The position numbers were made by a program, and so were the translations under genes. This document shows positions 1 through 64,000 of a stretch of 64,000 nucleotides of DNA, piece after piece. The notes beneath the pieces are model-generated. The model was not told the DNA's origin, searched no databases, and saw only the letters and a list, made by a program, of their open reading frames with translations. The stretch's first letter is position 1. Each line of letters begins with the position of its first letter. This DNA comes from a phage, in the sequence record PZ445444.1; one strand, written 5' to 3'.

Positions 1-14
1 TTCTGAGGTCAGTT

Positions 15-593
15 ATGAAATGCAAACGTTGTGGAGAGGACAAGGAGGCCTCCGACTTCTACACCAGTAACAAATCAACGTGCAAAGAGTGTTGCAAGAA
101 GGCCAGCAGGGAGGCTGACCAATTTGCTAGAGACTCTTCAGAAAAAGGTGTAATACGTGTGTTGTACAAGGCTCAAAAGTGCAACAGCAAGCAAAGAGGT
201 CACCCTCCTCCGACTTACACCAAAAAAGAGTTTAAGGAGTGGCTATACCTTAACGGTTACAAAGAGTTGTATGATCAGTGGGTAGCCAGCGGATACGACA
301 AAAGGAAAAAGCCTTCTTGTGACAGGATAGATGATTTCAAAGGGTACTCTTTTGATAATATCCGTTTAACGACTTGGGGAGAAAATAAAGACAAGCAGAC
401 AGAGGATATTCTGTTACATAGAAGCACCAGCGGTAGACGGTGCAAAAATGTAAGGAGGTTGGACATGAATGGTAACGTTCTTAAAGAATGGGTATCTCAC
501 AACTCTTGTAGCAGAGAAACCGGAATATATATTGGTTACTACATTCATGAAAAAATTCCAGCTCCAGATGGATACTTATACGAATACTTTTAA
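15..593 (+). CDS. putative HNH-type homing endonuclease with N-terminal CxxC zinc finger
   Basis: 192-aa ORF with GAGG RBS; N-terminal CxxC...CxxC resembling the zinc finger of ORF 63303-63893; nuclease-like core (CDRIDDF...DNIRL). Family assignment by eye only. Confidence 0.45.
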   Translation: MKCKRCGEDKEASDFYTSNKSTCKECCKKASREADQFARDSSEKGVIRVLYKAQKCNSKQRGHPPPTYTKKEFKEWLYLNGYKELYDQWVASGYDKRKKPSCDRIDDFKGYSFDNIRLTTWGENKDKQTEDILLHRSTSGRRCKNVRRLDMNGNVLKEWVSHNSCSRETGIYIGYYIHEKIPAPDGYLYEYF

Positions 594-655
594 CACATAA
601 CTAACATAGCCCTGCCCGAAAGGGTGGGGCATTTTTGTATAAGGAGATCTGAAAA

Positions 656-1072
656 ATGACATTAGAAGATATCATTGTTAAACCTGAGAACTATGACCAA
701 TACAACCTGTCAACTCAATCTGTAGACCTTGGATGCGCCACGGTCAGTGCGTGGCTGGTTAACGGAAAAGAGCTGGATAAATGCTTAGAAGCTCACATGT
801 CTATTAACAAGTTTCTGGATGAAAATACTCACTGGCTTGAGGGTGCAGGCGTATATGCTTCATGGTTGGAGAGTATGGGATTCGACTACCAATCTGAAGA
901 GGGGTGGTGGAGCTATTTAGCTATCTGTCCAGAGACGCTACAATGCTTCATGAAATATTCTGAAGATTTGGAGTACCGGGCGGTGGTTGATAGTGCTATT
1001 GCCCGTTATAGCCGTAAACCTTTTTCCCACGACATTAAAACTGTGGAAGAATTTGTTGAAGTTTTCTGTTGA
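656..1072 (+). CDS. hypothetical protein
   Basis: 138-aa ORF, AAGGAG RBS 8 nt upstream of ATG. Confidence 0.6.
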   Translation: MTLEDIIVKPENYDQYNLSTQSVDLGCATVSAWLVNGKELDKCLEAHMSINKFLDENTHWLEGAGVYASWLESMGFDYQSEEGWWSYLAICPETLQCFMKYSEDLEYRAVVDSAIARYSRKPFSHDIKTVEEFVEVFC

Positions 1073-1168
1073 CACAGATTGAAAGGTGTGCAATTATAAC
1101 TTCATAGAACGGGAGGACGTGATGAACGAAGAAAACTGGGATGTATAACTAACAGGAGGCCACTGCCC

Positions 1169-1366
1169 ATGATTTATCGAATCCGTGTAAGAGAAGATGC
1201 ACCAGGCTGTTACTTTGACTGGCGTGGGTGGTGGTTTATCCACCCAATGGATGGACTCACAGATAGAATGCTGGATGCTGCCCTTTATACAGATACCGAC
1301 ATAGAATATAATCTCTATCTGAAGGACGGTATAGATAACGGCCTGTTTGAAGCAATTCCTGTGTAA
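1169..1366 (+). CDS. hypothetical protein
   Basis: 65-aa ORF, AGGAGG RBS. Confidence 0.5.
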   Translation: MIYRIRVREDAPGCYFDWRGWWFIHPMDGLTDRMLDAALYTDTDIEYNLYLKDGIDNGLFEAIPV

Positions 1367-1434
1367 GAGACTGTGATAGCTATGTTTTATGATCTTCCTG
1401 TAGCACCACCACCTGTTGAACCCGGAGAACTAAG

Positions 1435-1860
1435 ATGATCTATGAAATGCCAAAACTGATTCGTGACGATGCCCAAAACGCCCACACCTTTATCATGGGC
1501 AAGCGCATGGATATTATTTGTCATAAAGATTTCTGGGAAGGTAGTTACTTCACAGAATATTTTGGTAAACTGGATAATGGTCTGCTGATCCAGTTCTACA
1601 CCGATGCGGAAAACAATATCTGCTGGGAGTTCGAAACTGAAGATATCCATAAACTTTTCACCTTCCTAGGTATTAAGGTTGAGGCCAAGTTTGAAGAAGG
1701 CGAGTGCGACGATTGTGGATTCTACGAGGTAACAGATTTCTATCTCCCAAGTGGTGAGAACCTTTACTATGAAAGCCACTTCGGCAACTCAAATATGCCA
1801 CAAGGTTGGGATGAGTTTTTTGAAATTGCGGAAGAGGAGCTGACATACCGTGATTATTGA
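1435..1860 (+). CDS. hypothetical protein
   Basis: 141-aa ORF, GGAG RBS; stop overlaps next start. Confidence 0.6.
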   Translation: MIYEMPKLIRDDAQNAHTFIMGKRMDIICHKDFWEGSYFTEYFGKLDNGLLIQFYTDAENNICWEFETEDIHKLFTFLGIKVEAKFEEGECDDCGFYEVTDFYLPSGENLYYESHFGNSNMPQGWDEFFEIAEEELTYRDY

Positions 1861-2308
1861 TACTGTAGCGGGAGATTTAATCTCCCTTTTTAAGAGCGGT
1901 GCTGGTCACCTGATCCACGGTTGTAACTGCTTTCATACAATGGGTGCAGGCATAGCGAAAGATATTGCCCGTGAGTTCCCTCAAGCACTGGCAGCCGACA
2001 AAGAGACTGCCTATGGTAATCTGGACAAGCTGGGTATGTTTTCTTGTTGGGAGCATTTTGCCAAGAACAGGGTCGTATATGGAATCAACCTGTATACCCA
2101 GTTCTACCCAGGGCCCAATGCTGAATACTTCTCAATAATGAAAGGTTTTGAGCGAGTCAACGAGGTATTCAAAGGTGTGTCATTGCCGTTCTACATTCCT
2201 AAAATTGGATGCGGTATTGGCGGTCTAAAGTGGGAACATGTAGAAGATGTAATTAATCTTGCAACCACAGATATTGATGTGGTTGTAGTAGAGTACAAAA
2301 AGTGTTGA
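1850..2308 (+). CDS. macrodomain protein, TARG1/OARD1/DarG-like ADP-ribosyl hydrolase
   Basis: 152-aa ORF (GTG start overlapping upstream stop); motifs GDL...HGCNCFHTMGAGIA...FP and IPKIGCGIGGLKWEHV match my recollection of human TARG1 (GDLF...HCISEDCRMGAGIA, PRIGCGLDRLQWENV) and the same length. Confidence 0.7.
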   Translation: MIIDTVAGDLISLFKSGAGHLIHGCNCFHTMGAGIAKDIAREFPQALAADKETAYGNLDKLGMFSCWEHFAKNRVVYGINLYTQFYPGPNAEYFSIMKGFERVNEVFKGVSLPFYIPKIGCGIGGLKWEHVEDVINLATTDIDVVVVEYKKC

Positions 2309-2559
2309 CGACCATCTTCTGAGGTGATATAGTTTCCACAACAACTAAGAGAGGAGAGCACTGTGGAGACTAAAATCTTAATTCTTGCTGTGGTAGATAC
2401 AACCGAAGGAGCTATATTCGAATCTGCAGGGGGGTATTTCTACCTACCATACGGAAAAAGAACTTCCGAGCCAAGTAAAGATTCAATCCTCAAGGTGTTC
2501 CCGTGTGCTTTCTGGCTGGAGATTTTGGTATAAGATTGCAGAGGATTTGGGAGAGAATT

Positions 2560-2754
2560 ATGAGAAACAAGAAAGAGCTTTACTCTGGTGAGTGGATCAA
2601 CGATCAACAGGTGGGAGAGGTAACCTGCTTCCGATGTTTTACCAGGTACAATCTTAAAACTGCACCAAAAAGTGTTCCAAAGACTGATGGTTATTACATA
2701 AAAGAACCTCATTGCCCAAAATGTAAATGCCGATTATACTGGAGTAACCTGTAA
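2560..2754 (+). CDS. small zinc-ribbon protein
   Basis: 64-aa ORF from internal ATG with GGGAGAG RBS; CxxC...CxxC pairs. Confidence 0.45.
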   Translation: MRNKKELYSGEWINDQQVGEVTCFRCFTRYNLKTAPKSVPKTDGYYIKEPHCPKCKCRLYWSNL

Positions 2755-2817
2755 AAGATTGACATCTGAAAACTGCAGTGTATAATATATGCATAAACTA
2801 ACAGAGAGTGATGTATT

Positions 2818-3009
2818 ATGGTAATTTTTAACCGGGATGGTATCATAGTTAGACAGCACCCCTTCCTTGAATACTATCAAATTGAGCAATGGTGCTACGG
2901 GGATTGCAGTCACTCCTATGGGCAAAGTTGGGGATATCGTACAGTTTTTGAATCCACAGACCTTGACAAAGTAAGACAGAAAGTTTTAGAACTTATTAAC
3001 AACAAGTGA
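2818..3009 (+). CDS. hypothetical protein
   Basis: 63-aa ORF. Confidence 0.4.
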   Translation: MVIFNRDGIIVRQHPFLEYYQIEQWCYGDCSHSYGQSWGYRTVFESTDLDKVRQKVLELINNK

Positions 3010-3019
3010 GCATCGTGCC

Positions 3020-3352
3020 ATGGTAACATTGGAAAGACGTAAAGCTATCGCCGCCACACTGGCAGACATCTTTTGGGATTGCAACTTAAAAGATACCCGA
3101 AATTGTGGCGCATCTGTAGATGTATTATTCCCACGGCCCACCATTGTTGCAATGGGCAACCTGCTCGATGTGGTATATGGAGCATGGGACAAGGAAGGTG
3201 GATTCTATATCTGGCAACCTGACTACGGGACCTGGAAAGAGGTTAGTGGTTCTGCGGACTTCACTCCTGCAGAGGCTAAAATGGATGGCTGGAAAATCTA
3301 TGTCGGTAACGACATGAAGCTGAAAGGCGAGATTGTTTACTGGTTACCTTAA
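3020..3352 (+). CDS. hypothetical protein
   Basis: 110-aa ORF. Confidence 0.5.
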   Translation: MVTLERRKAIAATLADIFWDCNLKDTRNCGASVDVLFPRPTIVAMGNLLDVVYGAWDKEGGFYIWQPDYGTWKEVSGSADFTPAEAKMDGWKIYVGNDMKLKGEIVYWLP

Positions 3353-3372
3353 GAGAATGCAGGAGATAAGGT

Positions 3373-3618
3373 ATGAACAAAGGGTGGACATTTGTAGACG
3401 GCGTTAAAAACATGCCTCTAGGAAAGTATATTGTAGCCATGGCAGATGAGAATGGCAAGGTGGATTTCGGAGTTTGCGAGGTTGTTCTTGCAGGATCTGG
3501 TGACTATGCTCACAAAACTGGGATAATTAACGGTCATTTCTACTTTGATTACAACCCTGTTGTGGCGTATATGGCTATGCCAGAGTTAGAGCTCCCAAAG
3601 GAGGGTGCAGATGTTTAA
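3373..3618 (+). CDS. hypothetical protein
   Basis: 81-aa ORF, AGGAG RBS. Confidence 0.55.
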   Translation: MNKGWTFVDGVKNMPLGKYIVAMADENGKVDFGVCEVVLAGSGDYAHKTGIINGHFYFDYNPVVAYMAMPELELPKEGADV

Positions 3619-3808
3619 GCTTAAATCTGCATGGAACATCGCTGTGGGGGACGAGATCCGTATCCCAGGTGGAAAGACCATTATGAAGATATCTCGTATC
3701 GAGTACGAAGGTGATCGTGTATTTCATATCTTTGCAGAGGATGGTCGAGAAATTTATATACAGGCAGGCTCTCACATCTATATTCGTAAGAAAGGGGACG
3801 ACAAATGA
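3605..3808 (+). CDS. hypothetical protein
   Basis: 67-aa ORF, AAGGAGG RBS, overlaps upstream stop. Confidence 0.5.
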   Translation: MQMFKLKSAWNIAVGDEIRIPGGKTIMKISRIEYEGDRVFHIFAEDGREIYIQAGSHIYIRKKGDDK

Positions 3809-4134
3809 CAGAGATCATCATTTCAACTGCAGGGTATGTGTTCCTGACAATCATTGCACTGACCATTCTGGTTGTGGTATATGGAATTGTTATTCTCCCT
3901 ATTCTTGAGACAATTAGTTTGTGTCGGTGTTGGAGAAAGGCTTACGGTCCACAGCCGTGGAAGGACTGGCCCCACCTTGTGCACATAGCGTTCTCTTATG
4001 CTTATGATCACGCCAGCAGTGCATGCATAACCGGGTATCACGCCCACAACTGGAGCTGGGAAGGGTTGAGGAAATGGAATGTTACAAAGACCATACCTCT
4101 GCGCATGTACAAACCTAAAAACAAAGACAGCTGA
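3805..4134 (+). CDS. hypothetical membrane protein
   Basis: 109-aa ORF, AGGGG RBS; hydrophobic segment VFLTIIALTILVVVYGIVILPIL. Confidence 0.5.
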   Translation: MTEIIISTAGYVFLTIIALTILVVVYGIVILPILETISLCRCWRKAYGPQPWKDWPHLVHIAFSYAYDHASSACITGYHAHNWSWEGLRKWNVTKTIPLRMYKPKNKDS

Positions 4135-4445
4135 TACTTGAAAATTTCTGGCATATCAAGTGTAAGGAGGATTTCTAAAATGGATTTCCTCCTTTTGATA
4201 TTTCACCGGGCTAGATATTTTAAAATTCTTAGAAAATCAGAAAATGGATCGAAAACTAAAATGGATTTTTCAGAGCAGGCACGACGAGATGAACCACTCA
4301 TCCTATCGTCTGCACCATATTCCAGACCACCATTACAGATTTCCCGCACATGCTCACATCCTTCTACTAGAACTTCCCCCACTTACCCTTGACCTTTTAT
4401 AGTAATAATCCAACCACTACCTTGAAGTTGTGGCGCAGCTTTCCA

Positions 4446-4640
4446 AGTACTCGATCTGTTTTTCGTTTCAAAGATTGAATTTTCTGAAAATTTTTCTCGA
4501 TAAATTTCTCAGTACTCGATCTGTTTTTCGTTTTCTGAATCGGATTTTCTGGAAATCGTTCCGGCTCTCGACCTGAAATTTTTGGGGACGAAATCGATTT
4601 TTCGTTTTCAGAAATGGATTTTTAAAATTTCTATATGGGA
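4446..4640. repeat. degenerate tandem direct repeats (about 65-bp unit, roughly 3 copies)
   Basis: CAGTACTCGATCTGTTTTTCGTTT occurs at 4446 and 4511; recurring TTTTCGTTTTC and GATTTTCTGGAAA-like motifs. Confidence 0.6.
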
Positions 4641-4736
4641 ATATTTTAGTGGATACTATTTTATAGGAAATTGTTACGGAGGGTAATTAGCGTGCTAATT
4701 AAATTTATTAAATGCGAGGAGTTCTCATTTAGAATT

Positions 4737-4950
4737 TTGAATGATAATCATTCTCGTTTGCAGAATAACGGGCAGGCCCGGTGATTGTCTCCCGGCCCCT
4801 ACTGCCCCGGCTTGTTATTATAGTAACACACAGGACAAAGAAAGCAAGAAGTTTTTGCATAAATTTTTAGACGATAATGATAATCGTTCTCATTTCATGC
4901 AGCGCCCATCCCCGGTGGTTGTCTCCCCCGTCACCGGTGCCTGCCGTCCT
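4737..4950. repeat. two diverged ~75-bp direct repeats, each starting with a Fur-box-like sequence and ending in a GC-rich hairpin
   Basis: aATGATAATCATTcTC near 4740 and GATAATGATAATCgTTcTC at 4873-4891 (17/19 to GATAATGATAATCATTATC), each followed by CCGGTG(A/G)TTGTCTCCC. Confidence 0.5.
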
Positions 4951-5157
4951 TTCGATAGGTATATTTTGCCACCTAGCGGGGCCGCTGTCAACACTTTTCA
5001 AAAAAAAAAAAAAATTTCTAACCTGATGCGCTGACCGCTGCAACCTGGCGGGGCCAGCCTGGCAGGGCCTAACTGACCAGGTAGGAGAGAATGAAGGCTT
5101 GCAAACCTGGTGGGCCTATGCTATAGGATAGATAACAATTGAAGAGGAGGTACAAAA

Positions 5158-5334
5158 ATGGAAGGTAATATGATCCCCCTGGAAAATGTAGCTATTAATG
5201 ACGCTGAGGCTATCGCCCTGGTTGAAAAGGCTATGGCGGGAGCGTTGGAACATAAAGAAGAGTACGAAAAAATGATGGTTAACCTGGCAGGGGCGGCGGC
5301 TGGAGAATTCTACCCAAAAAATAATTTTAACTAA
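5158..5334 (+). CDS. hypothetical small protein
   Basis: 58-aa ORF below the ORF-track cut-off; strong GAGGAGG RBS. Confidence 0.4.
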   Translation: MEGNMIPLENVAINDAEAIALVEKAMAGALEHKEEYEKMMVNLAGAAAGEFYPKNNFN

Positions 5335-5419
5335 TGGTTGACAGCTCGGACAGTTCTTGTTATTCTTATCCTCGCAAGGTGAACAACACCACACCAATTA
5401 ACAGAGAGGATAAAAAATC

Positions 5420-5617
5420 ATGAACGCCTACGGAATTAAAGTACGTCGCAACACTCGCCAGGTGGTCACCAATCAAGTGATTTGCCGGGTGGATGTAACC
5501 ATCAACAACGGGCAAGGCCTTTATAAATTTCGTCGCGGTCATAGCTATACCCTGCAACAGCTTAATCGTTGCGCCCTGACAAAAGGTCAGATCAACCACT
5601 GGTTTAATAAAAAATAA
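5420..5617 (+). CDS. hypothetical protein
   Basis: 65-aa ORF, GAGGA RBS. Confidence 0.5.
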   Translation: MNAYGIKVRRNTRQVVTNQVICRVDVTINNGQGLYKFRRGHSYTLQQLNRCALTKGQINHWFNKK

Positions 5618-5681
5618 GTATTGACATATAGTCCGACACCAAATACACTAAAAGCACAAAAGACACTAAGAGGATAAAATC

Positions 5682-6080
5682 ATGAAAACCACTACCTTTA
5701 ATTTTGATAATGCAGACTTTTCTTTTTCTGATGTCAAGAACTGCCGCCGTGATCGTGGATTTTACAAGGCTTATAATCTGGTGGGCCTGGACGATGACAA
5801 TAATTTGCACGAAGTAGCTGAGATCCGGTATTATGCCGCCGCCAGTGGTAACACTCACTACTGCGTGTTTTGGATTCACGACAACAAGAACAATAAGTAC
5901 GGTTATACTGGCGGCAAGGCGAGCGGTCACGGTTACGATAAAGCTAACGCAGCACTTGAGAGCGCATTAAATGCTATGGGGATCACTGCCGACGGCTGGA
6001 TCTACGAAGAAGAGTTTTTGTCGGCACTTGCTGACCACCTGGGCTATAAAAAGCACATTGTGACATGCGCCCACGAATAA
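5682..6080 (+). CDS. hypothetical protein
   Basis: 132-aa ORF, GAGGA RBS, promoter-like TTGACA upstream. Confidence 0.6.
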   Translation: MKTTTFNFDNADFSFSDVKNCRRDRGFYKAYNLVGLDDDNNLHEVAEIRYYAAASGNTHYCVFWIHDNKNNKYGYTGGKASGHGYDKANAALESALNAMGITADGWIYEEEFLSALADHLGYKKHIVTCAHE

Positions 6081-33889: not shown

Positions 33890-34882
33890 CTACAGGCTAT
33901 TACCTGTCCTATGTTTACAACAAATCTCTCTATGCGCTGATTCTACCATACTGAACACTTCAGGTCTGTAGTTAAAGAATTCGGTACTACCATCAAATTT
34001 TACAGGGAAGTTTATTTTATATTTACTGAAGGCTTTGTGCACAGATTTTTCTACAGCCAGCATGTTTTCAGTTGATCCTTCCAACGTTTTCACTATGTGA
34101 AGATCGCGGATACTAGCTCCAGATCTTTGTGCACTTTTAAGTATCTGGTCTCTTCGCTTACTTTCATTATGACTGACCCCTATTTTCATAAATGTAGGCA
34201 CTTCTGGATCATCAACCATAATGTAGAGTTTTCCGTTATCGTGTGATAAAAATCCTGTTTTAGCACATCTAGGGCAAGCATGTCCCTGCTTAAGACTGCT
34301 TGGTACGGTTAACCATGTGTGGCTACAATTTTTACAGCAGCACAGGACTTTCTTATCCCACCTAATAATTTCTTCCAATATCTCAACATAAGGATTTCTA
34401 CTTCTTATGGACTCAACCCACTTTTCGTGTGGTGATGTTTTACTTTGTGAGATTCTTGACCCCTTACAAACTGGACAACCTCTTTTCAAATTTATATGGT
34501 TATCAGGTGTCTGTGTAAAGTGATTTCCACAAGTGTTGCAGATTATTTCTACCCTGTCTTTGCAAGTCTTGTAGTATACGAGAGAGTAGTCATATTTATC
34601 TCCATGGATTTCTTTGGCCCTTTCTACAAATTTAAGACCTTTATTACACTTTGCAGCACGAGAAAGTTTTGCACAAAAAGGACAACCACGACCTTGCAAG
34701 TGTTTACAAGGTGCTTGCATAAAATCCCCATGGATTTGGCAGGTAATGCAAACCTTCGCATAGCAATCCACGTACACTGTTTTCGTGTAATCGTATTTAT
34801 AACCGTGAATGATTTTCGCCTTCTCTATAAACTCTTCTGTTGATAATTTAGCCATTTCTTGTTTCCTAACTTCTCTAAACAT
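33890..34882 (-). CDS. T5orf172-domain (GIY-YIG-like) protein with tandem N-terminal zinc-ribbon repeats; putative homing endonuclease
   Basis: 330 aa; two repeats of HG-KYDYS...C..C...GCP.C; C-terminal GKLYIMVDDPEVPTFMKIGVSHN...R matches my recollection of the T5orf172 domain. Confidence 0.6.
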   Translation of the reverse strand: MFREVRKQEMAKLSTEEFIEKAKIIHGYKYDYTKTVYVDCYAKVCITCQIHGDFMQAPCKHLQGRGCPFCAKLSRAAKCNKGLKFVERAKEIHGDKYDYSLVYYKTCKDRVEIICNTCGNHFTQTPDNHINLKRGCPVCKGSRISQSKTSPHEKWVESIRSRNPYVEILEEIIRWDKKVLCCCKNCSHTWLTVPSSLKQGHACPRCAKTGFLSHDNGKLYIMVDDPEVPTFMKIGVSHNESKRRDQILKSAQRSGASIRDLHIVKTLEGSTENMLAVEKSVHKAFSKYKINFPVKFDGSTEFFNYRPEVFSMVESAHREICCKHRTGNSL

Positions 34883-34919: not shown

Positions 34920-36164
34920 TCAGCAACTACAACTTCCATAGTGCTTAACTCGCTCGATAACTTCCGCTTGCTTACCTTTATTGTAAGGACGGGAGTTAGG
35001 ACTGGAAAGGTATCCAGACACACGTCGAATTACACTGATCGTTCCCTCTTCATGGTTTCCACACTCTGGGCATACAAAGCCTTTAGCTGTTGCACTGAAC
35101 TCACCAGAGAAACCACACTTGAGACATTTATCCACAGGTTGGTTAATACCAAAATACATAATGTGTTTATACCCGAAGTCAACAAGAGCCTCTAAAGCAT
35201 CCAGGTTGTTTTTCAGGTTGGGTGTTTCTACGTATCCGATGTTGCCACCAGAGGAGATCATAGCAAAACCTTCCTCATACTCCCACTTATCAAAAGGAGA
35301 GCTATTTATCCATACTGGCTGATGGAAACTGTTGGTGAGATATTCATGCTCGTGCTTCAACACTTCCGGATATTCACGATCCAGACAGGTTGCAGCTTTA
35401 TAGCATAGACTCTCAGAAGGAGTGCCGTACAAGCTAAATGCTAGTCTACTTTCCTTCTTGTATCGCTCACAAGCATCTCTCATGTGCTGAAGGATTCCAA
35501 GAGCTAAAGCCTTGTCACCCTCTCTGCCCAAAATCTGACAGGTTTCATACACACCGATATACCCAATACTGATGGAAGCGTACCCGTCATAGAAGAGTTT
35601 ATCAATACTCTCTTCAGGATCCAGGCGAGCAAGAGCGCCTTCACACCACATGATGGGGTTCTGCCCTGCCTTTGTTCCTTTTAGACGATTAACCCTTACA
35701 AGGTGAGCCTCGTATGCAAGATCCAAGTATTCGTCAAGAACTGCAAAGAAATCAACACCTTCAGTCTTGGCTTTTGCCGCAATCATTGGCAGGTTAAGGC
35801 TAACAACGCCTAAGTTAAATCTGCCAAGGTATTTCTCCTCGCCTGTTTCCAAGTCATTGTATTTGCTAAGAAAACTCCTGCAACCCATGCTAGTTACTTT
35901 GCCATCTGTCGAGCCTGTCACTTTTCTATTTAGTGGTACAGATACGAAGTCAGGATAGATACGTTCTGCACAGCATTCCAGAGCTAATCGTTTCAAATCA
36001 TAGTTAGGATCCCCAGGGTTCATGTTGACACCCTCTTCCAGGAAGAACAGCACTTTAGGGAACACAGGTGTGATACGTTCTTCACCAAGACCCATTTTGT
36101 GGACTTTCAGGTAGTTTTTGGTAATCATTCTACCAAAGACCGAGGTATCCAGTCCTAAACTCAA
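34920..36164 (-). CDS. nrdD: anaerobic ribonucleoside-triphosphate reductase, C-terminal part
   Basis: 414 aa; NLGVVSLNLP motif, C-terminal zinc site CLKCG...CPECG and glycyl-radical motif RRVSGYL. Confidence 0.8.
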   Translation of the reverse strand: MSLGLDTSVFGRMITKNYLKVHKMGLGEERITPVFPKVLFFLEEGVNMNPGDPNYDLKRLALECCAERIYPDFVSVPLNRKVTGSTDGKVTSMGCRSFLSKYNDLETGEEKYLGRFNLGVVSLNLPMIAAKAKTEGVDFFAVLDEYLDLAYEAHLVRVNRLKGTKAGQNPIMWCEGALARLDPEESIDKLFYDGYASISIGYIGVYETCQILGREGDKALALGILQHMRDACERYKKESRLAFSLYGTPSESLCYKAATCLDREYPEVLKHEHEYLTNSFHQPVWINSSPFDKWEYEEGFAMISSGGNIGYVETPNLKNNLDALEALVDFGYKHIMYFGINQPVDKCLKCGFSGEFSATAKGFVCPECGNHEEGTISVIRRVSGYLSSPNSRPYNKGKQAEVIERVKHYGSCSC

Positions 36165-36976
36165 TGTGATGAATGGAGTCTGCTGTCTCCTCCCTGTGTT
36201 TCCACAGGGCCAGACTATCTCTTACTCTACTTCAATAAGATAATAACCCTTTATTGTGAGATGCTTACCTTCGGCATTTCCTTCGATAGCCCTATGAACG
36301 TTACCTACGTTCAAATTTAAGGCTTTTGCACAGGCATAGAGTGAAGGATATTCACCCACCAAGGTTTTCCCTTTGTATGCCTGCACTTTCCTATAGCACT
36401 TACCTGGACAAAGTCCTGTTCGGAAAGCATGTCTCTTATTATCTTCCGGCAAAACCCACTCTAGGTTAGACGGATGATCATTCAATGTATTGCCATCTTT
36501 ATGATTCACTTCCCAGTTTTCAGGGTCTTCTGGGACATCCGGCAAACAATACAAGGCAACAATCCTTGAGGTTTGGATTCGAATCTTTTTACCTTTGTGG
36601 TTGAAAGAGTACATATAACGGCGTTTAACATGCTTGTTACCTTTTCCATAACCTCCCCACAATATTGGGTGTAGCATTCCACGTTTTCCGTATACGTTTC
36701 CAACCTCATCAATCACATAGTTTGATTCTTCACCATTAAGAATGATCTTTTTCATAGAGCCTCTCCATTTCGAAGTTAGTATTTCAACTAACCCCTACAC
36801 TACTTGGTTCAGAAATGTTTGTCAAGCATCTCTGCCTTTCGTTAGTCGTTACAACCGTTCCAACTCCTGTAAGAACTAGTCACGGGATTGGCATAGCTTT
36901 CGCCTTAGCGTTCCCCGTTAGCCGGATTTACCGACCCCTCTTATGAGGTTAGGAGAGTTTTACAACGGCCAGTTTG
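36165..36976 (-). mobile_element. insertion splitting nrdD: probable group I intron carrying an HNH homing-endonuclease ORF
   Basis: about 810 bp between the two nrdD ORFs; flanks are non-AT-rich and non-coding. Confidence 0.5.
36222..36755 (-). CDS. HNH homing endonuclease
   Basis: 177 aa; HNH motif region NHKDGNTLNDHPSNLEW. Confidence 0.75.
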   Translation of the reverse strand: MKKIILNGEESNYVIDEVGNVYGKRGMLHPILWGGYGKGNKHVKRRYMYSFNHKGKKIRIQTSRIVALYCLPDVPEDPENWEVNHKDGNTLNDHPSNLEWVLPEDNKRHAFRTGLCPGKCYRKVQAYKGKTLVGEYPSLYACAKALNLNVGNVHRAIEGNAEGKHLTIKGYYLIEVE

Positions 36977-37840
36977 TTAACCGTTGACAGAAGTTAACGT
37001 ATTGATTTGATAGAGCAAAGTCTGCATGCTGTCAAATACGTCTTTATCTGTCATTTGCATTGCAACAGTCTCAGCATCTGGCAACCAATGTTCCTGGCAA
37101 AATTTAAGGTTCTTCTCATAGGTCGCTTCAGCATACTGTGCCAGATAATGATCAATATGGCTCATAGTCTGACCCCCATATTGAGCACTAGCTACTGCAC
37201 TAGAGATTTGGCTAAGGATTGTTGTTGCAACCCCTATTGACTTAGGCTTACTGACATGGGCGTTACCAATGTTGAATCCGTTTTCCAACATATCTGGATA
37301 ATTTACCAAACAACAGTTTGTTAACGGACTGATCAAGTAGTCAAGATCATGCACATGGATGAAGCCTCTATTGTGCTCTTCTGAGACACGGTCTGGCAGG
37401 ATCTGTGTTGATGCAAGGTGTTTGCTAAGAATGCCTGCAAGCAGGTCACGATGAGTGTGTACATGATTGGTAGGCTTATTTGCGTTTTCTTTTGTAAATT
37501 CATCACAAGTGCGATCCAAGAAGCCACTAATATCTGCAAGCAGTTTTCCACCTGCCTCTCTGTTATTATCTCTTGTCTGCCTATACTGGATGTATTCTCT
37601 GGCTGCACATTTTAAACCCATATCCATAAGAGCGTCTTCAACAAGGATATGGATATTTTTTACAGAGATCGTGCACTGGTCGGTTGGTAGATTGTTAGCA
37701 ACAACTTCATTAACCGCGCAGGCGATCCGGTAAGCTTCTTCTTCAGTATGTCCAGACTCAAGTAAGGCGGACTCTGCCGCCTTGATCACCTTAATTCCGT
37801 TATAGACCTCTTCTCTACCGTCCCGTTTTACAACTTTCAC
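36977..37840 (-). CDS. nrdD: anaerobic ribonucleoside-triphosphate reductase, N-terminal part (ATP-cone)
   Basis: 287 aa; N-terminal ATP-cone-like VVKRDGREEVYNGIKVIKA. Confidence 0.75.
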   Translation of the reverse strand: MKVVKRDGREEVYNGIKVIKAAESALLESGHTEEEAYRIACAVNEVVANNLPTDQCTISVKNIHILVEDALMDMGLKCAAREYIQYRQTRDNNREAGGKLLADISGFLDRTCDEFTKENANKPTNHVHTHRDLLAGILSKHLASTQILPDRVSEEHNRGFIHVHDLDYLISPLTNCCLVNYPDMLENGFNIGNAHVSKPKSIGVATTILSQISSAVASAQYGGQTMSHIDHYLAQYAEATYEKNLKFCQEHWLPDAETVAMQMTDKDVFDSMQTLLYQINTLTSVNG

Positions 37841-53953: not shown

Positions 53954-54667
53954 TTAAATATACTCTGTTACATCCTTGAAGCTCGAAGGCTTCATGATCT
54001 TACCTTTACTGTCAAGGAATATGATAACTTTATTACCGTTGTAGAATTCTTCCTTAGCAACAAAACCTTCATATCGACCATCAAAGCGTCGCTCAAGATC
54101 TTTAATCTCCAACTCGATGAGTTGTTCAGCAGGCATATCTGCACTGGCACCGTGTGAATACCGTAGATGGTTGACCCGTGCAAACTTGCTGTCATTCGAT
54201 TTGAGAACCTTACGCATCATCCCGCACACATCGCCGCGAAGCTGGAACAGCAAAGCTGTTGACAACTCTGCTAAGCGGTAAGCGGATGCTCTTTGCCTAG
54301 AGGTGTTTTTCGCAGCGATCAGTGTATCATAGAACTCACCGATCTTGAACTTAAGACCTCGTGGATTATCAAACAGGTTTGACCACTTTTCGTGATTGTC
54401 ATTAACAAGATAAGCGGCATAACTTGTGACAACGTGAAGATCGCAGGCCTCTTTTAGCAGGTGATCTCCACCATCCCCTTTTTCCAGCTCTTCCAAAACT
54501 TCATTGAACTCTTCCTCAATGAAGCTAAGCTGTAATTCGAACGGTGTGTATGATTTTTTCACTTTAGCTGCCACACGGTTCCAGTTTTCCACCCAGTTGG
54601 CAGACCAAAGGTAGTTTTCAGGTTGGGACAGTTTTTCCAGGTTGTCAATTAATTTAGTATTCAGCAT
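53954..54667 (-). CDS. hypothetical protein, possibly MazG-like NTP pyrophosphohydrolase domain
   Basis: 237 aa; E-rich helix IEEEFNEVLEELEKGD...LLKEACDLHVV; weak. Confidence 0.3.
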   Translation of the reverse strand: MLNTKLIDNLEKLSQPENYLWSANWVENWNRVAAKVKKSYTPFELQLSFIEEEFNEVLEELEKGDGGDHLLKEACDLHVVTSYAAYLVNDNHEKWSNLFDNPRGLKFKIGEFYDTLIAAKNTSRQRASAYRLAELSTALLFQLRGDVCGMMRKVLKSNDSKFARVNHLRYSHGASADMPAEQLIELEIKDLERRFDGRYEGFVAKEEFYNGNKVIIFLDSKGKIMKPSSFKDVTEYI

Positions 54668-54680
54668 TAAAGGTCTCCTT

Positions 54681-55442
54681 TTAAAGTTCCATAAAGTTTT
54701 CTACGGTCTCAATGAATGTTTTATCAGAGAAGGCATCAACCGCACCGTTAAACCAAACTGGGATGCCGCGATCCTCATACTGGTAAATATCACTACGTGA
54801 AATGCCATTCTCCTCTAGATGCTGTGAGTCGTATTTATTAACGATCAGTAGTTTGGTTCCCTTATTGCAGGCAGGGAATAGCTCCCAGTTAAAATTGATA
54901 ACTGTGTTGGAACACCCTACAAGGATAACCATATCATTGCTTGTAAGAGAAGTCAACAGGTCATACATGTCTGTATACTTCGGAGCTACTTCTCCGAAGA
55001 ACACCACATTAGGTTTAACCCAGGTATACTTTCCTGCATCTACCTCAGAGTATCCAATGTCCTTAATGACGTCACTTCCTTCATCGTCCTCATAGACTAT
55101 TTCTGGCAAATACCCGTGAACATGTAAAATATCTTCATGTTTTACACCCGCACGCTCCAGCAAATCATCTACATTGGTGGTAAGGTTGATCACACGACCA
55201 GACCAGCGGGAATACCACTCAGCGATCCGAAGATGTGCAAGGTTAGGCTCAACACCGCCTAGAGCTACACGACGTGCATTGTAAAAGTCATGCACCTTGT
55301 AGTAGTTCTTGGCAAAGGTGTGGATGTTGCACACCTCATCGATGCTGAAATTCTCCCACATTGCAGTGCTACCAGATCGGAAAGTGGGAATACCAGATTC
55401 AGCGCTCAAACCAGCACCGGAGATAATAATCAGTCGTCGCAT
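54681..55442 (-). CDS. Sir2-family NAD-dependent deacylase / ADP-ribosyltransferase-like
   Basis: 253 aa; GAGLSAESGIPTFR NAD-binding motif, catalytic HG. Confidence 0.8.
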   Translation of the reverse strand: MRRLIIISGAGLSAESGIPTFRSGSTAMWENFSIDEVCNIHTFAKNYYKVHDFYNARRVALGGVEPNLAHLRIAEWYSRWSGRVINLTTNVDDLLERAGVKHEDILHVHGYLPEIVYEDDEGSDVIKDIGYSEVDAGKYTWVKPNVVFFGEVAPKYTDMYDLLTSLTSNDMVILVGCSNTVINFNWELFPACNKGTKLLIVNKYDSQHLEENGISRSDIYQYEDRGIPVWFNGAVDAFSDKTFIETVENFMEL

Positions 55443-55450
55443 AAGTGTCC

Positions 55451-55801
55451 TCAGTAGATGTTTTGTTTAATCTCTATTCCAAACTTTTTAAACGAGTCAG
55501 CTGCAAGCATGAATTTACGAGCCGCTGATGGGTTAGAAGTATGCACGAAAATCTTCACGTTGTCAACTACAGGGGGCTTACCAAATACAAATTTTTCCTC
55601 CAACATAGATAGGCAATCGTACCCTTCGAACACCTCTCCAAGGTCGTTGTCCATGTGCCACTCAGAAACGCGTCTGTAGAGCTTTCCCCTATCGTTAATA
55701 AAATCTATAAACTCGGAGGAATTCTTTAGCCAAATAGCGTCTGGGAGCCCATAATTTGACGGATCTCTCAAGTCATCCAGCCACACAATCAACTTCTTCA
55801 T
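55451..55801 (-). CDS. hypothetical protein
   Basis: 116-aa ORF between Sir2 and RNA ligase. Confidence 0.5.
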   Translation of the reverse strand: MKKLIVWLDDLRDPSNYGLPDAIWLKNSSEFIDFINDRGKLYRRVSEWHMDNDLGEVFEGYDCLSMLEEKFVFGKPPVVDNVKIFVHTSNPSAARKFMLAADSFKKFGIEIKQNIY

Positions 55802-56712
55802 TGCATATAGTTCTCGTTGTGGAAATAGTAATCAAGTATCTCACGGCGTTCCTGCTCCAGGAGGCAGTTCCACACATCTTCTGTGTAATTGTTACTAATG
55901 AAGTTTACCATGCCGTAAAACTCTTCGTCAACACGTTTAAAGATATCATCATCCCAAATCTTCCAAGCTTTACCCCTCATTACGGCCTTCCGTGCCAGGT
56001 AGTATGGAGACTTGATCTTCAGCTGCAGGTCATAAGGGTAGTAAGGCTTACGGATCATATACCCTTCGCCCCTTGTTTCTGCGGCTAATTCTTTTGCATA
56101 GCTGAACGGGATTTCACGCACAGTGTGAGGACGTTTTGCACCAAGGTATTTGGCAATCCCATCTAAAGCTGCTTCTGGTAGCATTATTCCAGAATCATTA
56201 TATCTGCAACCTATCAAATATGCGCCATGGTCTTCTTGAACAATATGCGGATCTGAAGGGTGACAAATTTCAAACATGAATGTCATGTTTTCATTGCCCA
56301 TAACCTTCTTGATAAGATCTAAATTACCACATTGCTCTTGGATGGTTTCCTTTGCAAGGTTACAATATGGAGAATCAAGAGACCCGGTTGTTGAGAACAA
56401 TAGGTCACCTTTATGAGATGATACCACACCAAGGAATCCGTTCTTTTTCTCTACCGCAGTCACAAGCTTATTGTCAGGCAGGTTGGTGGAGTTTTCTCCC
56501 AAGTTAAACACTTTTGTGAAGGGCCATGCCACAACATTTCCTTCATTACCTACAACAATGCCTCGGCACTCCAGTAAACGAGGGGACAAATGCCATAAAT
56601 TGTTGTAAAATACTTTTCTAGCATATTTATAGATCTTTAACCCGAGATCTGGGTAATACCTACTGGTTACAAGACCTTTGTCAACTAGGTCGTCTGCATT
56701 AAAATACTTCAT
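55798..56712 (-). CDS. RNA ligase-like nucleotidyltransferase
   Basis: about 304 aa from ATG with GAGG RBS (track start 56733 also possible); motif I-like KKNGF, motif IV EGYMIRK, motif V LKIKSP. Confidence 0.65.
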   Translation of the reverse strand: MKYFNADDLVDKGLVTSRYYPDLGLKIYKYARKVFYNNLWHLSPRLLECRGIVVGNEGNVVAWPFTKVFNLGENSTNLPDNKLVTAVEKKNGFLGVVSSHKGDLLFSTTGSLDSPYCNLAKETIQEQCGNLDLIKKVMGNENMTFMFEICHPSDPHIVQEDHGAYLIGCRYNDSGIMLPEAALDGIAKYLGAKRPHTVREIPFSYAKELAAETRGEGYMIRKPYYPYDLQLKIKSPYYLARKAVMRGKAWKIWDDDIFKRVDEEFYGMVNFISNNYTEDVWNCLLEQERREILDYYFHNENYMQ

Positions 56713-56776
56713 TATATGTTCCTCATTTATCATTTTGTCAGTCTATCCTGCCACACAAATAACCTAGTGTCAACAC

Positions 56777-56805
56777 TTGAAATTAACAAAACAGTTAGGT
56801 ATACT
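56777..56805 (+). promoter_or_regulatory. sigma70-like promoter in divergent intergenic region
   Basis: TTGAAA, 17 nt, TATACT upstream of the kinase gene. Confidence 0.45.
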
Positions 56806-56833
56806 ACCGTTGAAATTAAAACGGAGGGTCACT

Positions 56834-57244
56834 ATGTCTAAAATGCTATATATCGTGCGTGGTCTACCAGGGTCTGGCAAATCAACACTGGCAAATGCGC
56901 TATCTTTAGAGGGTCTGTATCCACATTTTGAGAACGACATGTTCTGGTATGACGATGACGGCAATTACAACTGGGATGCAAGTAAAGTAACACTCGCAGC
57001 AAAATGGTGCAAAGATAACGTAGAAGATATGATGCGTATGGGATACGACCGTATCGTGGTAAGTAATACGTTTACAAAAGAAAAACATGTGCAGGAATAT
57101 GTTGACATGGCAATCAGTCATGGGTATAGTTATACCGTGATCGTGGTTGAAAACCGCCACGGTAATAAAAGCATTCATGATGTTCCAGACAAGGTTGTGG
57201 ATCGTATGGAACGCCAGCTTAAAAACTGCATTAAACTTAAATGA
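56834..57244 (+). CDS. P-loop kinase (polynucleotide-kinase-like)
   Basis: 136 aa from ATG with GGAGGG RBS; Walker A GLPGSGKST near N-terminus. Confidence 0.65.
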   Translation: MSKMLYIVRGLPGSGKSTLANALSLEGLYPHFENDMFWYDDDGNYNWDASKVTLAAKWCKDNVEDMMRMGYDRIVVSNTFTKEKHVQEYVDMAISHGYSYTVIVVENRHGNKSIHDVPDKVVDRMERQLKNCIKLK

Positions 57245-57251
57245 GGAATGT

Positions 57252-57806
57252 ATGAAATACTTTGTAACAAGCGACACACACTTTCTCCACCAGCGGGTCA
57301 TGGAGTTTGATTCATGTCAAAAACACAGATCTCAGTATGATCACAATCTTGACAGTATGAATGCGGGAATCATCGCCGAGTGGAACTCTGTTGTGTCACC
57401 TGCAGACACTGTGTTCCACTTGGGAGATATTGCGTGCACTAATGATAAGAATATCAACAACTTACTTCCAGATATTCTAAATATGTTGAACGGACATATT
57501 ATTCTTGTTCGTGGCAACCATGACACAAGGACGACTGTCAGAATTATGAAAGAGTTCGGTCATGAGGTTGTAGATTATTACGAGCTTCGCCACAACAAGA
57601 ATTTGATCTGTATGAGCCATTACCAGTTTGCAAAGTGGAACAGAAAGCCTCACGGATCAGTCCAACTGTTCGGTCATGCTCACGGAACCACACAACAGTT
57701 GTTTGGCAGGCAGCTTGATGTCGGTTGGGATGTGTGGGGGAGACTCTTACCATTAGAAGAGGCATACCGTATTGCAATGAGTTTTGATATTGACAGCAGG
57801 GAGTAA
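57252..57806 (+). CDS. calcineurin-like metallophosphoesterase
   Basis: 184 aa from ATG with GAGGAA RBS; motifs SDTHF, GDIA, GNHD. Confidence 0.75.
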   Translation: MKYFVTSDTHFLHQRVMEFDSCQKHRSQYDHNLDSMNAGIIAEWNSVVSPADTVFHLGDIACTNDKNINNLLPDILNMLNGHIILVRGNHDTRTTVRIMKEFGHEVVDYYELRHNKNLICMSHYQFAKWNRKPHGSVQLFGHAHGTTQQLFGRQLDVGWDVWGRLLPLEEAYRIAMSFDIDSRE

Positions 57807-63087: not shown

Positions 63088-64000
63088 TTTGTAGCTCTCG
63101 TAAAACCTCCCTAATTGCGGGGAAATCTTTATTATTGACACCACCAACCTGTCATGGTAACATGACAGAGGCTTCGAAGAGAGATCGAAGGTATGGTAAC
63201 AGTGTGTTAATTTAGATAATCCGCAGCGAAGCATCCGAGAGGATGAACGTTCAACGACTAGTCGAAAGACGTAGAATCAAGCGATTCGAAACGGGAGGGT
63301 GAATGTGTAATACTAAAAAATGTATGGATTGCCAAAGAGTTCTACCTATTGATGATTTCTTTTTATCATCTAAGAGCAAGGATGGATACTCAGGTACATG
63401 CAAGGAATGCTATATGTACTACAGGAAGGGTGGATCTCGTAAAAACAAAAATATGGTTAAGAGAGATGATGCAGCATTGTTTATTCAAGACTTGCTGAAG
63501 AAAGGTGAACTTTTTGAATGCAAATCTTGTCATGAAAGTATGCTCGCTGATAGTTTTTACACAAAACGTGACTATGGTAAAGTATATCTGGTTACGAACA
63601 GGTGTAAGATGTGTGAAAAGTTTTATCAGATTGAGAAGAAATTTCACATAACAAAAGATGAATACTATCGTCTACTCTCAGATCAAGATCATAAGTGTGC
63701 CATTTGTAGAATATCCCTTGATGAGTATAGGACGCAAGGGTATAGAGATTTCTTTTGTGTTGATCATGACCATAAAACTGGTGCTGTAAGAGGGTTGCTT
63801 TGTGATAAATGCAACAGAGCTTTAGGTTTCTTCCAAGAGGATGAGGAAACTATTCTTAGAGCGGCAGAGTATTTACACATTCATAAGATATAGTCTGGTC
63901 TGCATGGAGACATGCAGCTGCCTGAAAATGGCGGGGCAAGACTAGCGACCTTGCCCGAACATAAACGACACAATTCGAATGGGAGCAGATAGACTACCTG
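63088..64000 (+). mobile_element. probable group I intron (partial, continues past window) with an Endo VII-type nuclease ORF
   Basis: 215-nt non-coding stretch after the truncated terminase ORF, then the nuclease ORF, then further non-coding sequence to the window end. Confidence 0.45.
63303..63893 (+). CDS. Endo VII-type (HNH-like) homing endonuclease with N-terminal zinc fingers
   Basis: 196 aa, GGGAGGG RBS; CMDCQ...CKEC and CKSC zinc-finger motifs; Endo VII signature VDHDHKTGAVRGLLCDKCN. Confidence 0.7.
   Translation: MCNTKKCMDCQRVLPIDDFFLSSKSKDGYSGTCKECYMYYRKGGSRKNKNMVKRDDAALFIQDLLKKGELFECKSCHESMLADSFYTKRDYGKVYLVTNRCKMCEKFYQIEKKFHITKDEYYRLLSDQDHKCAICRISLDEYRTQGYRDFFCVDHDHKTGAVRGLLCDKCNRALGFFQEDEETILRAAEYLHIHKI

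What the first reader, a model, noticed from the sequence alone, without database searches (positions are those of the whole stretch)
1850..2308. TARG1/DarG-like macrodomain in the early gene block
Length and both signature segments match TARG1-type macrodomains as I recall them; these remove ADP-ribose from proteins and, in DarG, from DNA. An early-expressed phage macrodomain is a strong candidate for reversing ADP-ribosylation by host toxins such as DarT, or for processing ADP-ribose derivatives generated by the Sir2/RNA-repair genes elsewhere in the window.
Basis: partly seen in the sequence, partly recalled or inferred. Interest (0 to 1): 0.7.

Follow-up and report, generated by a model that had tools for sequence, protein, structure and literature searches.

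The report
Phage macrodomain, likely anti-DarT2 eraser
This early gene of an rV5-like E. coli phage encodes a small ADP-ribose-removing enzyme of the same family as phage T4 Tk.4/AdfM, which lets T4 escape the bacterial DarTG2 defence, so it is a new member of a recently recognised kind, not a new system.

The parts
1850..2308 (+). Macrodomain gene, 152 aa plus stop; member of the T4 Tk.4/AdfM family (PHROG 335)
1834..1839 (+). Shine-Dalgarno GAGGAG, 10 nt upstream of the GTG start, inside the 3' end of the upstream ORF
   Evidence: Sequence; the same RBS and start are annotated in phage Murica
1916..1957 (+). Loop 1 / ADP-ribose-binding motif H23-G-C-N26-C-F-H-T-M-G-A-G-I-A36. Asn26 corresponds to SCO6735 Asn27, to the conserved DarG Asn, and to the PhiKZ AdfM N23 that was mutated experimentally
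   Evidence: Asn26 is N in 259/259 and His23 is H in 253/259 family members; alignments; role of the Asn from PMC9411070 and PMC13309987
2087..2101 (+). Catalytic-centre motif N80-L-Y-T-Q84. Gln84 occupies the position of TARG1 Lys84, DarG Lys80 and SCO6735 Gln85
   Evidence: Gln in 256/258 aligned family members; equivalence shown by phmmer, profile hmmsearch, MAFFT and hhalign
2198..2233 (+). Loop 2 / diphosphate-binding motif P117-K-I-G-C-G-I-G124-G-L-K-W128. Gly124 sits where TARG1 has catalytic Asp125
   Evidence: P117, G120 and G122 are invariant; alignment to TARG1 PRIGCGLDRLQW, DarG PPLGVGNGGLDW and SCO6735 PRIGCGLAGGTW
1435..1860 (+). Upstream ORF (141 aa, PHROG 8157, function unknown) overlapping the macro gene by 11 nt; probably co-transcribed and translationally coupled. 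Context only, not shown to be a partner
   Evidence: no similarity to T4 Vs, which sits upstream of tk.4
1284..1312 (+). Sigma-70-like promoter match (TTTATA-17-TATAAT, 10/12) upstream of the 1435 ORF; candidate promoter for the two-gene unit
   Evidence: consensus match only; promoter-like sites in 1..6000 are 25 against 12.3 +/- 3.7 expected

Best explanation
The gene encodes a stand-alone, orphan-antitoxin-like macrodomain ADP-ribosylglycohydrolase of the T4 Tk.4/AdfM family. It is probably made early from host-type promoters. It binds ADP-ribose attached to thymidine in single-stranded phage DNA, the mark written by the host DarT2 toxin at TNTC motifs, and hydrolyses the N-glycosidic link. 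This releases ADP-ribose and restores a replicable template, so the phage escapes DarTG2 abortive defence. Its chemistry is lysine-independent, like SCO6735. Asn26 locks the invariant Gln84, which holds the ring oxygen of the distal ribose, and an activated water does the catalysis. There is no Lys Schiff base as in TARG1 and no Lys80 as in DarG. The protein has no DarT-binding domain, so it is expected to act on the modification and not mainly by sequestering the toxin. Shown here: the ORF, the fold, the class, the residue equivalences, homology and synteny with Tk.4, and the NADAR fusions. Inferred: the substrate, the mechanism, the timing, and the anti-DarTG2 phenotype in this phage.
Against: There is no experiment on this protein or on any Vequintavirinae homologue. 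The T4 evidence is genetic and comes from a preprint; no biochemistry exists for any Tk.4-type (Gln) phage macrodomain. Identity to T4 Tk.4 is only 39%, and to SCO6735 about 25%, so the Gln may be convergent. The window protein lacks SCO6735's longer, Lys-bearing mobile loop, which was proposed to aid DNA binding. ALC1-class macrodomains are promiscuous and act on protein Glu/Asp-ADPr, OAADPr, RNA-phosphate ADPr and Appr1p, so substrate cannot be read from sequence. The family has an invariant Asp50 with no counterpart in SCO6735, DarG or TARG1, which hints at a family-specific feature. Early expression is inferred only from consensus promoter matches.
Confidence: 0.68

Rival explanations
1. 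It is a de-ADP-ribosylase aimed at a different target than DarT2-modified DNA. Candidates are protein mono-ADP-ribosylation (host toxin ARTs, or a balance to phage ARTs) or RNA ADP-ribosylation (CmdTAC-type defence). DNA thymidine would then be at most a side substrate.
For: TARG1 is among the closest structures and acts on Glu/Asp-linked protein ADPr. SCO6735 also removes ADPr from auto-modified PARP1. The invariant, family-specific Asp50 suggests chemistry or recognition not shared with the DNA-specific DarG. Johannesman et al. note that phage counter-defences may also detoxify RNA ADP-ribosylating systems.
Against: The TARG1 Lys/Asp dyad needed for ester-linked protein ADPr hydrolysis is absent. 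In T4 the homologue gave a specific DarTG2 phenotype. Recurrent fusion to NADAR, a DNA-base ADPr hydrolase, points to nucleic-acid base adducts.
Confidence: 0.15
2. It is a metabolic Poa1p-like ADP-ribose 1''-phosphate phosphatase or O-acetyl-ADP-ribose deacetylase that clears by-products of the phage's Sir2 or of RNA repair. This is the database label and the reader's second idea.
Against: The Sir2 and RNA-repair genes lie about 52 kb away on the opposite strand, so there is no operon link. In the sampled hit lists, Sir2 homologues (1,006 phage records) are mainly in T5-like phages and the macrodomain (2,741 records) mainly in T4-like phages, which do not appear in the Sir2 sample. No Tpt1/KptA-like gene was seen among the scanned ORFs, and an Rnl1-type pathway leaves no 2'-phosphate, so Appr>p/Appr1p should not arise (inference from textbook knowledge). 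Poa1p Phe152 corresponds to Gly124 here. The labels are transferred from CDD, not from tests.
Confidence: 0.1
3. It acts mainly without catalysis, either as a binder or sponge for ADP-ribose-derived immune signals (Thoeris-type) or as a direct inhibitor of DarT.
Against: The Gln84/Asn26 pair, which is catalytically essential in SCO6735, is strictly invariant, which argues for selection on enzymatic activity. There is no DarG-like C-terminal DarT-binding domain. There is no evidence for oligomeric sponge features.
Confidence: 0.05

Closest known systems
T4 Tk.4 = AdfM (anti-DarT factor Macrodomain), HIDEN-SEQ preprint, bioRxiv 10.1101/2025.11.20.689424
   Same: Same length class (155 vs 152 aa) and alignable end to end at 39% identity. 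All three motifs are shared, including NLYTQF. Same PHROG 335. Both are stand-alone macrodomains in a block of small early-type genes of a large virulent E. coli myovirus. A Krischvirus carries a 69%-identical copy at the tk.4 locus.
   Different: Different phage subfamily (Vequintavirinae vs Tevenvirinae) and different neighbours; the upstream ORF is not vs. The anti-DarTG2 phenotype is shown only for T4.
Streptomyces coelicolor SCO6735 and Bacteroides BT1257 (Gln-type ALC1-class macrodomains; PDB 5E3B, 2FG1/2AFC)
   Different: Only about 22-26% identity (38-39 bits), so this is a separate subfamily. The window protein has a shorter loop after the Gln, lacking the Lys-bearing mobile loop. It has GCNCFHTMGAG where SCO6735 has VCNDLGGWGKG, and it has an invariant Asp50 where they have Tyr. 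SCO6735 is a bacterial housekeeping or stress gene; this one is a phage gene.
DarG (DarG2) antitoxin macrodomain (PDB 5M3I, 5M31/5M3E, 7OMU) and PhiKZ gp104 AdfM (PMC13309987)
   Different: The catalytic Lys (FPTK) is replaced by Gln. There is no C-terminal DarT-binding domain and no DarT partner gene. Similarity to DarG is only 37 bits and to PhiKZ AdfM only 26 bits, whereas PhiKZ AdfM scores 87 bits against DarG. The two phage proteins both named AdfM therefore belong to different subfamilies.
Human TARG1/OARD1 (PDB 4J5R/4J5S)
   Same: Same length, the top Foldseek hit (E 7.5e-10, TM 0.75-0.81), and shared H...MGAGIA and PRIGCG motifs.
   Different: The Lys84-Asp125 catalytic dyad is absent (Gln84 and Gly124 here). 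TARG1's main substrates are Glu/Asp-linked protein ADPr and OAADPr.
Yeast Poa1p (PDB 6LFQ-6LFU), ADP-ribose 1''-phosphate phosphatase
   Different: Poa1p has TSS where this family has YTQ (my recollection of the Poa1p sequence, not checked here) and Phe152 where this protein has Gly124. Poa1p is 25 aa longer. No pathway that would generate its substrate is evident in the phage.

Membership tests
Macrodomain superfamily (Pfam PF01661) | Sequence match above the curated threshold, and a three-layer alpha/beta/alpha macro fold with two glycine-rich ADP-ribose-binding loops | tested here: met
ALC1/TARG1-like macrodomain class (TARG1, DarG, SCO6735, BT1257, Poa1p) | Closer in structure and sequence to this class than to MacroD, viral, PARG or macroH2A classes | tested here: met
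T4 Tk.4 / AdfM family (Gln-type phage macrodomain) | Full-length homology with the shared invariant signature HGCNCFHTMG-G, D50, N-x-Y-T-Q and P-x-I-G-x-G | tested here: met
   39% identity, E 2e-33, 99% coverage. Invariant columns. Same PHROG 335. Syntenic 69%-identical copy in a T4-like phage.
T4 Tk.4 / AdfM family (Gln-type phage macrodomain) | Confers resistance to DarTG2 (the functional definition of Adf) | not testable with these tools
   Shown only for T4. Needs plaque assays with a deletion mutant.
TARG1/OARD1 | Catalytic Lys84-Asp125 dyad | tested here: not met
   Gln84 and Gly124 occupy these positions in the profile, MAFFT and hmmsearch alignments. The dyad is defined in PMC9411070.
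DarG (DarG2) antitoxin | Catalytic Lys80 in the FPTK motif | tested here: not met
   LYTQ aligns with FPTK of Mtb DarG and PhiKZ AdfM.
DarG (DarG2) antitoxin | C-terminal DarT-binding domain and an adjacent darT gene | tested here: not met
   The protein is 152 aa and matches only positions 9-143 of the 329-position PADLOC DarG model. The neighbours are small ORFs of unknown function, none with an ART hit.
DarG (DarG2) antitoxin | Conserved active-site Asn in loop 1 (mutated in DarG and as N23A in PhiKZ AdfM) | tested here: met
   Asn26 is invariant, 259/259, and aligns with the DarG and PhiKZ Asn. Its role is described.
SCO6735/BT1257-type lysine-less dT-ADPr hydrolases | Gln at the catalytic-Lys position, held by the loop-1 Asn (Gln85/Asn27) | tested here: met
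   NLYTQ aligns with NMIGQ, and HGCN aligns with HVCN/HICN.
SCO6735/BT1257-type lysine-less dT-ADPr hydrolases | Extended mobile loop after the Gln carrying Lys89, and close sequence kinship | tested here: not met
   The loop is about 5-6 residues shorter (QFYPGPNAEY vs QHGMKTGSKGAPVRY). Only 38-39 bits to the window protein, against 171 bits between SCO6735 and BT1257.
Poa1p-type ADP-ribose 1''-phosphate phosphatase | Residues probed in the Poa1p structures (His23, Ser30, Phe152) and phosphatase activity on Appr1p | tested here: inconclusive
   His23 is present, Thr30 replaces Ser30 and Gly124 replaces Phe152 (alignment; mutant names). The primary paper is not in the library and the activity cannot be tested here.

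The most novel reading that the evidence does not exclude
Tk.4-type macrodomains would be a third, mechanistically distinct branch of the ALC1 class. They are lysine-less, with an invariant Gln84/Asn26 pair plus a family-specific invariant Asp50 that is absent from SCO6735, DarG and TARG1. Their substrate range could extend beyond DarT2-modified thymidine, for example to other base-linked DNA or RNA ADP-ribose adducts. One small early protein, and its natural Macro-NADAR fusions, would then act as a broad eraser against several ADP-ribosyltransferase defences.
Probability: 0.15. Interest if true: 0.55.

Novelty: new member of a known kind. Interest (0 to 1): 0.3.

Why it matters
If confirmed, this extends macrodomain-based counter-defence against DarTG2 from T4 and PhiKZ to the Vequintavirinae, a broad-host-range group used in phage-therapy collections. 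It would also explain one of the many unknown genes in their early region. Some relatives (Bas60-62) carry a NADAR AdfN, so this subfamily may hold erasers for both DarT chemistries (thymidine and guanine), the same pairing that nature has fused into single Macro-NADAR proteins. The practical corrections are two. The database labels 'phosphatase' and 'Poa1p-like' are probably misleading. The name AdfM currently covers two catalytically different subtypes: Lys-type in PhiKZ and Gln-type in T4 and this phage. The Gln-type subtype has no published biochemistry for any phage member, and this very large family (18,156 representatives at 50% identity) would be a good place to test the proposed water-mediated mechanism.

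Tried and rejected
1) Paper searches with terms under three characters failed. The AdfM literature was reached through other terms.

It was rerun without T4.

3) I looked for a NADAR (AdfN) partner in the window. About 40 ORFs of 110 aa or more were scanned with Pfam and the PMBT16 annotation was checked. None was found. Smaller ORFs, and the rest of the genome outside the window, were not covered.

4) I tested whether the translationally coupled upstream ORF is a T4 Vs homologue or has a known function. It does not: BLASTP E 36 and PHROG 8157 of unknown function.

5) I tested whether a bacterial family member is a DarT-linked antitoxin. P0057 in Pelagimonas is a stand-alone gene among housekeeping genes.

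6) The in-ORF 'terminator' at 1870-1886, flagged by the scan and annotated in Murica, has a fold z-score of only -1.6, with 12 of 200 shuffles folding as well. It overlaps the conserved GDL codons, so I treat it as chance.

8) The Poa1p structure paper is not in the library.

Full report
OBSERVATION. The ORF listing finds an ORF at exactly 1850..2308 on the + strand (152 aa, GTG start). A GAGGAG Shine-Dalgarno lies at 1834-1839, and an in-frame TGA at 1841-1843 excludes a longer N-terminus. The annotators of phage Murica chose the same GTG and RBS and noted 'contains Macro domain'. The ORF overlaps the upstream 141-aa ORF (1435..1860) by 11 nt, so the two are probably co-transcribed and translationally coupled.

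WHAT GENOME AND WHAT FAMILY. The first 6 kb of the window are 94-96% identical to more than 100 rV5-like E. coli myoviruses (Vequintavirinae). The protein is 99.3% identical to the homologue in phage Murica and 95% to bas59_0089 of BASEL phage Bas59. tblastn finds homologues in 2,741 of 50,697 phage records, including T4 (39% identity, E 2e-33, 99% coverage). The T4 gene is tk.4, annotated 'contains A1pp phosphatase motif', between vs and tk. The window protein and Tk.4 share all motifs nearly letter for letter and fall in the same PHROG. In the T4-like Krischvirus G2494, a copy 69% identical to the window protein occupies the syntenic position: regB, two ORFs, macro, three small ORFs, tk. The two versions therefore behave as exchangeable alleles of one gene. 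An exhaustive profile search of 1.84 billion cluster representatives finds 18,156 relatives at E<=1e-3 and 1,336 at E<=1e-30, so this is a very large family.

WHAT IS KNOWN ABOUT THAT FAMILY. The HIDEN-SEQ preprint (bioRxiv 10.1101/2025.11.20.689424) reports that tk.4 was the single significant T4 gene depleted on a DarTG2-expressing host. A clean knockout sensitised T4 to DarTG2, and the gene was renamed adfM, for anti-DarT factor Macrodomain. Enzymatic removal of ADP-ribose from DNA was proposed but not assayed. Independently, a Cell Reports 2026 paper (PMC13309987) gave the name AdfM to PhiKZ gp104. It showed in vitro removal of DarT2-installed ADP-ribose from a TNTC oligonucleotide, reduced activity in an Asn mutant (N23A construct), and rescue of DarT2 toxicity. 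Johannesman et al. (PMC11825919) showed that T4 30.3/AdfN, a NADAR, counters DarTG1 (guanine) but not DarTG2 (thymidine). They also showed that the Vequintavirinae Bas60-62 encode their own NADAR AdfN.

THE CATALYTIC CENTRE IS NOT TARG1- OR DarG-TYPE. Four independent alignments place window Gln84 (motif N80-L-Y-T-Q84) on the catalytic lysine of the Lys-type enzymes. They are phmmer against DarG, profile hmmsearch against TARG1, SCO6735 and BT1257, MAFFT, and hhalign against PhiKZ gp104. They match Gln84 to TARG1 LITK84, DarG FPTK80 and PhiKZ FPTK, and they place Gly124 on TARG1 Asp125. The same column holds Gln85 in SCO6735 and BT1257 (NMIGQ). Across 263 aligned family domains the position is Gln in 256 of 258 non-gap cases. 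Asn26 is invariant (259/259), as are Asn80, Tyr82, Pro117, Gly120 and Gly122. According to PMC9411070, SCO6735 lacks both TARG1 catalytic residues yet is a highly active hydrolase of thymidine-linked ADP-ribose on DNA. Q85A and Q85E abolish its activity. N27S nearly abolishes it, because Asn27 locks the Gln85 rotamer that hydrogen-bonds the distal-ribose ring oxygen. A backbone-positioned water is proposed as the catalyst. SCO6735 also protects Streptomyces from DarT. The window protein has both the Gln and the Asn. The better reading is that the protein belongs to a lysine-less catalytic variant of the same class, one already proven competent on the DarT2 product.

THREE SUBFAMILIES. Pairwise BLAST gives window-T4 129 bits, SCO6735-BT1257 171 bits and PhiKZ gp104-DarG 87 bits, while all cross-pairs score 16-47 bits. 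PhiKZ AdfM is thus a true DarG-like (Lys) enzyme, and T4 AdfM and the window protein form their own Gln-type subfamily. That subfamily is roughly equidistant from SCO6735/BT1257, DarG and TARG1. Scores do not resolve whether the Gln is shared by descent with SCO6735 or is convergent. The Tk.4 subfamily differs from SCO6735 in having a shorter loop after the Gln and an invariant Asp50, where SCO6735 and BT1257 have Tyr. The role of Asp50 is unexplained.

INDEPENDENT SUPPORT FROM DOMAIN FUSIONS. Of the ten longest family representatives scanned, five are Macro-NADAR fusions (P0145, P0202, P0256, P0188, P0213) and two carry DUF4326. Two of the fusion proteins (P0213 and P0145) were looked up and lie in virus-like metagenomic contigs; P0213 sits near a NUDIX gene. 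NADAR is the fold of DarG1 and AdfN, which remove ADP-ribose from guanine in DNA. Fusing it to this macrodomain is what one would expect if the macrodomain handles the other DarT product, thymidine-ADPr. A bacterial member (Pelagimonas) is a stand-alone chromosomal gene with no DarT nearby, like SCO6735.

CONTEXT AND THE SECOND HYPOTHESIS. The gene sits in a + strand block of small ORFs running to about 17 kb. All its neighbours belong to lineage-specific PHROGs of unknown function. Sigma-70-like promoter matches are enriched about twofold, almost all on the + strand (25 against 12.3 +/- 3.7), which fits host-polymerase early transcription but does not prove it. The window does encode Sir2 (54681..55442, -), an Rnl1-type RNA ligase (55798..56733, -), a kinase (56777..57244, +) and a metallophosphoesterase (57147..57806, +). 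These lie about 52 kb away and mostly on the other strand. Sir2 homologues occur in 1,006 phage records and, in the sampled listing, mostly in T5-like phages of about 110 kb. The macrodomain is listed mostly in T4-like phages of about 168 kb, which do not appear in the Sir2 sample. Only sampled rows were compared, so this is suggestive and not a full co-occurrence test. An Rnl1/Pnkp-type pathway leaves no 2'-phosphate, so no Appr>p or Appr1p should arise (textbook knowledge), and no Tpt1-like gene was seen among the scanned ORFs. The 'Poa1p-like' and 'phosphatase' labels in GenBank and PHROGs are transferred from a conserved-domain name, not from assays. This rival is weak but cannot be excluded without enzymology.

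MECHANISM, WITH STATUS OF EACH STEP. (1) The protein is made early as part of a two-gene unit (inferred). (2) It binds ADP-ribose through the two glycine-rich loops (shown at sequence and fold level). (3) It recognises ADP-ribosyl-thymidine in ssDNA made by DarT2 (inferred from T4 AdfM genetics, SCO6735 biochemistry and the NADAR fusions). (4) Asn26 positions Gln84 on the distal ribose and an activated water cleaves the N-glycosidic bond without a covalent Lys intermediate (inferred by analogy with SCO6735; the residues are shown to be present and invariant). (5) It releases ADP-ribose and an intact thymine, which allows replication to resume (inferred). (6) It does not sequester DarT through a DarG-like C-terminal domain, because that domain is absent (shown).

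VERDICT. The clade and the anti-DarT idea are right. The protein is not TARG1-like or DarG-like in its catalytic residues, and the Sir2/RNA-repair link is unsupported. This is a new, untested member of a family whose T4 representative was recognised as an anti-DarTG2 factor in late 2025, and the gene is already annotated as a macrodomain in several GenBank records. Interest is modest. It comes from the invariant lysine-less active site, which has no published biochemistry in any phage member, from the recurrent Macro-NADAR fusions, and from the fact that 'AdfM' currently names two catalytically different subtypes.

Noticed in passing
Family-wide; window residue Asp50 (nt 1997-1999): Asp50 is invariant in the Tk.4-type family (257 of 258). 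It has no counterpart in SCO6735 or BT1257 (Tyr there), TARG1 or DarG.
   Followed up: partly
Relatives P0145, P0202, P0256, P0188, P0213, P0171; loci L007, L008: Five of the ten longest family representatives are natural fusions of this Gln-type macrodomain to a NADAR domain, and two carry DUF4326. The two fusion proteins looked up (P0213, P0145) lie in virus-like metagenomic contigs; P0213 is near a NUDIX gene. They look like single-chain erasers for both DarT1 and DarT2 products.
   Followed up: partly
Literature: PhiKZ gp104 vs T4 Tk.4: Two groups independently used the name AdfM for phage macrodomains of different subfamilies. PhiKZ gp104 keeps the DarG catalytic Lys (FPTK; 87 bits to Mtb DarG), while T4 Tk.4 and this window's protein have Gln (26 and 20 bits to gp104).
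   Followed up: yes
window 34920..37840 (-): The anaerobic ribonucleotide reductase NrdD is split into two ORFs (36977..37840 for the N-terminal part and 34920..36164 for the C-terminal part). An HNH homing-endonuclease ORF (36222..36755) lies between them. In phage PMBT16 NrdD is a single 2,139-nt gene. A T5orf172/zinc-finger endonuclease-like ORF (33890..34882) lies just downstream. This suggests an intron or a free-standing homing-endonuclease insertion.
   Followed up: no
window 54681..57806: An RNA-repair-like cluster next to a Sir2 gene: Sir2 (54681..55442, -), a 116-aa ORF, Rnl1-type RNA ligase (55798..56733, -), then divergently an AAA_33 kinase (56777..57244, +) overlapping a calcineurin-like phosphoesterase (57147..57806, +). 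A 237-aa ORF (53954..54667, -) beside Sir2 has no Pfam hit.
   Followed up: partly
window 1870..1886 (+), inside the macro ORF: A hairpin GGGAGATTTAATCTCCC followed by TTTTT lies 20 nt into the coding sequence, and phage Murica annotates it as a terminator. Its folding z-score is only -1.6 and it overlaps the conserved GDL codons, so it is probably chance. An attenuator role was not excluded.
   Followed up: partly
Database records MG065646, MG065647, MG065662 and others: Sixteen records named 'Campylobacter phage', 15 of them with host listed as Campylobacter jejuni, are 94-96% identical over 6 kb to E. coli rV5-like phages. The host labels look doubtful, or the propagation stocks may have been contaminated.
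   Followed up: no
window 15..593 (+) and 63303..63893 (+): Endonuclease VII-type ORFs lie near both ends of the window. The first matches PHROG 1035 and the second Pfam Endonuclease_7 (E 2e-21). With several HNH/homing endonucleases they indicate a high load of mobile nucleases.
   Followed up: no
window 2759..2786 (+): A perfect 12/12 sigma-70 consensus promoter (TTGACA-16-TATAAT) lies about 450 nt downstream of the macro gene, ahead of the 2818 ORF. Other strong + strand matches are at 1069, 2305, 5338 and 5621, suggesting many independent early promoters in this block.
   Followed up: no
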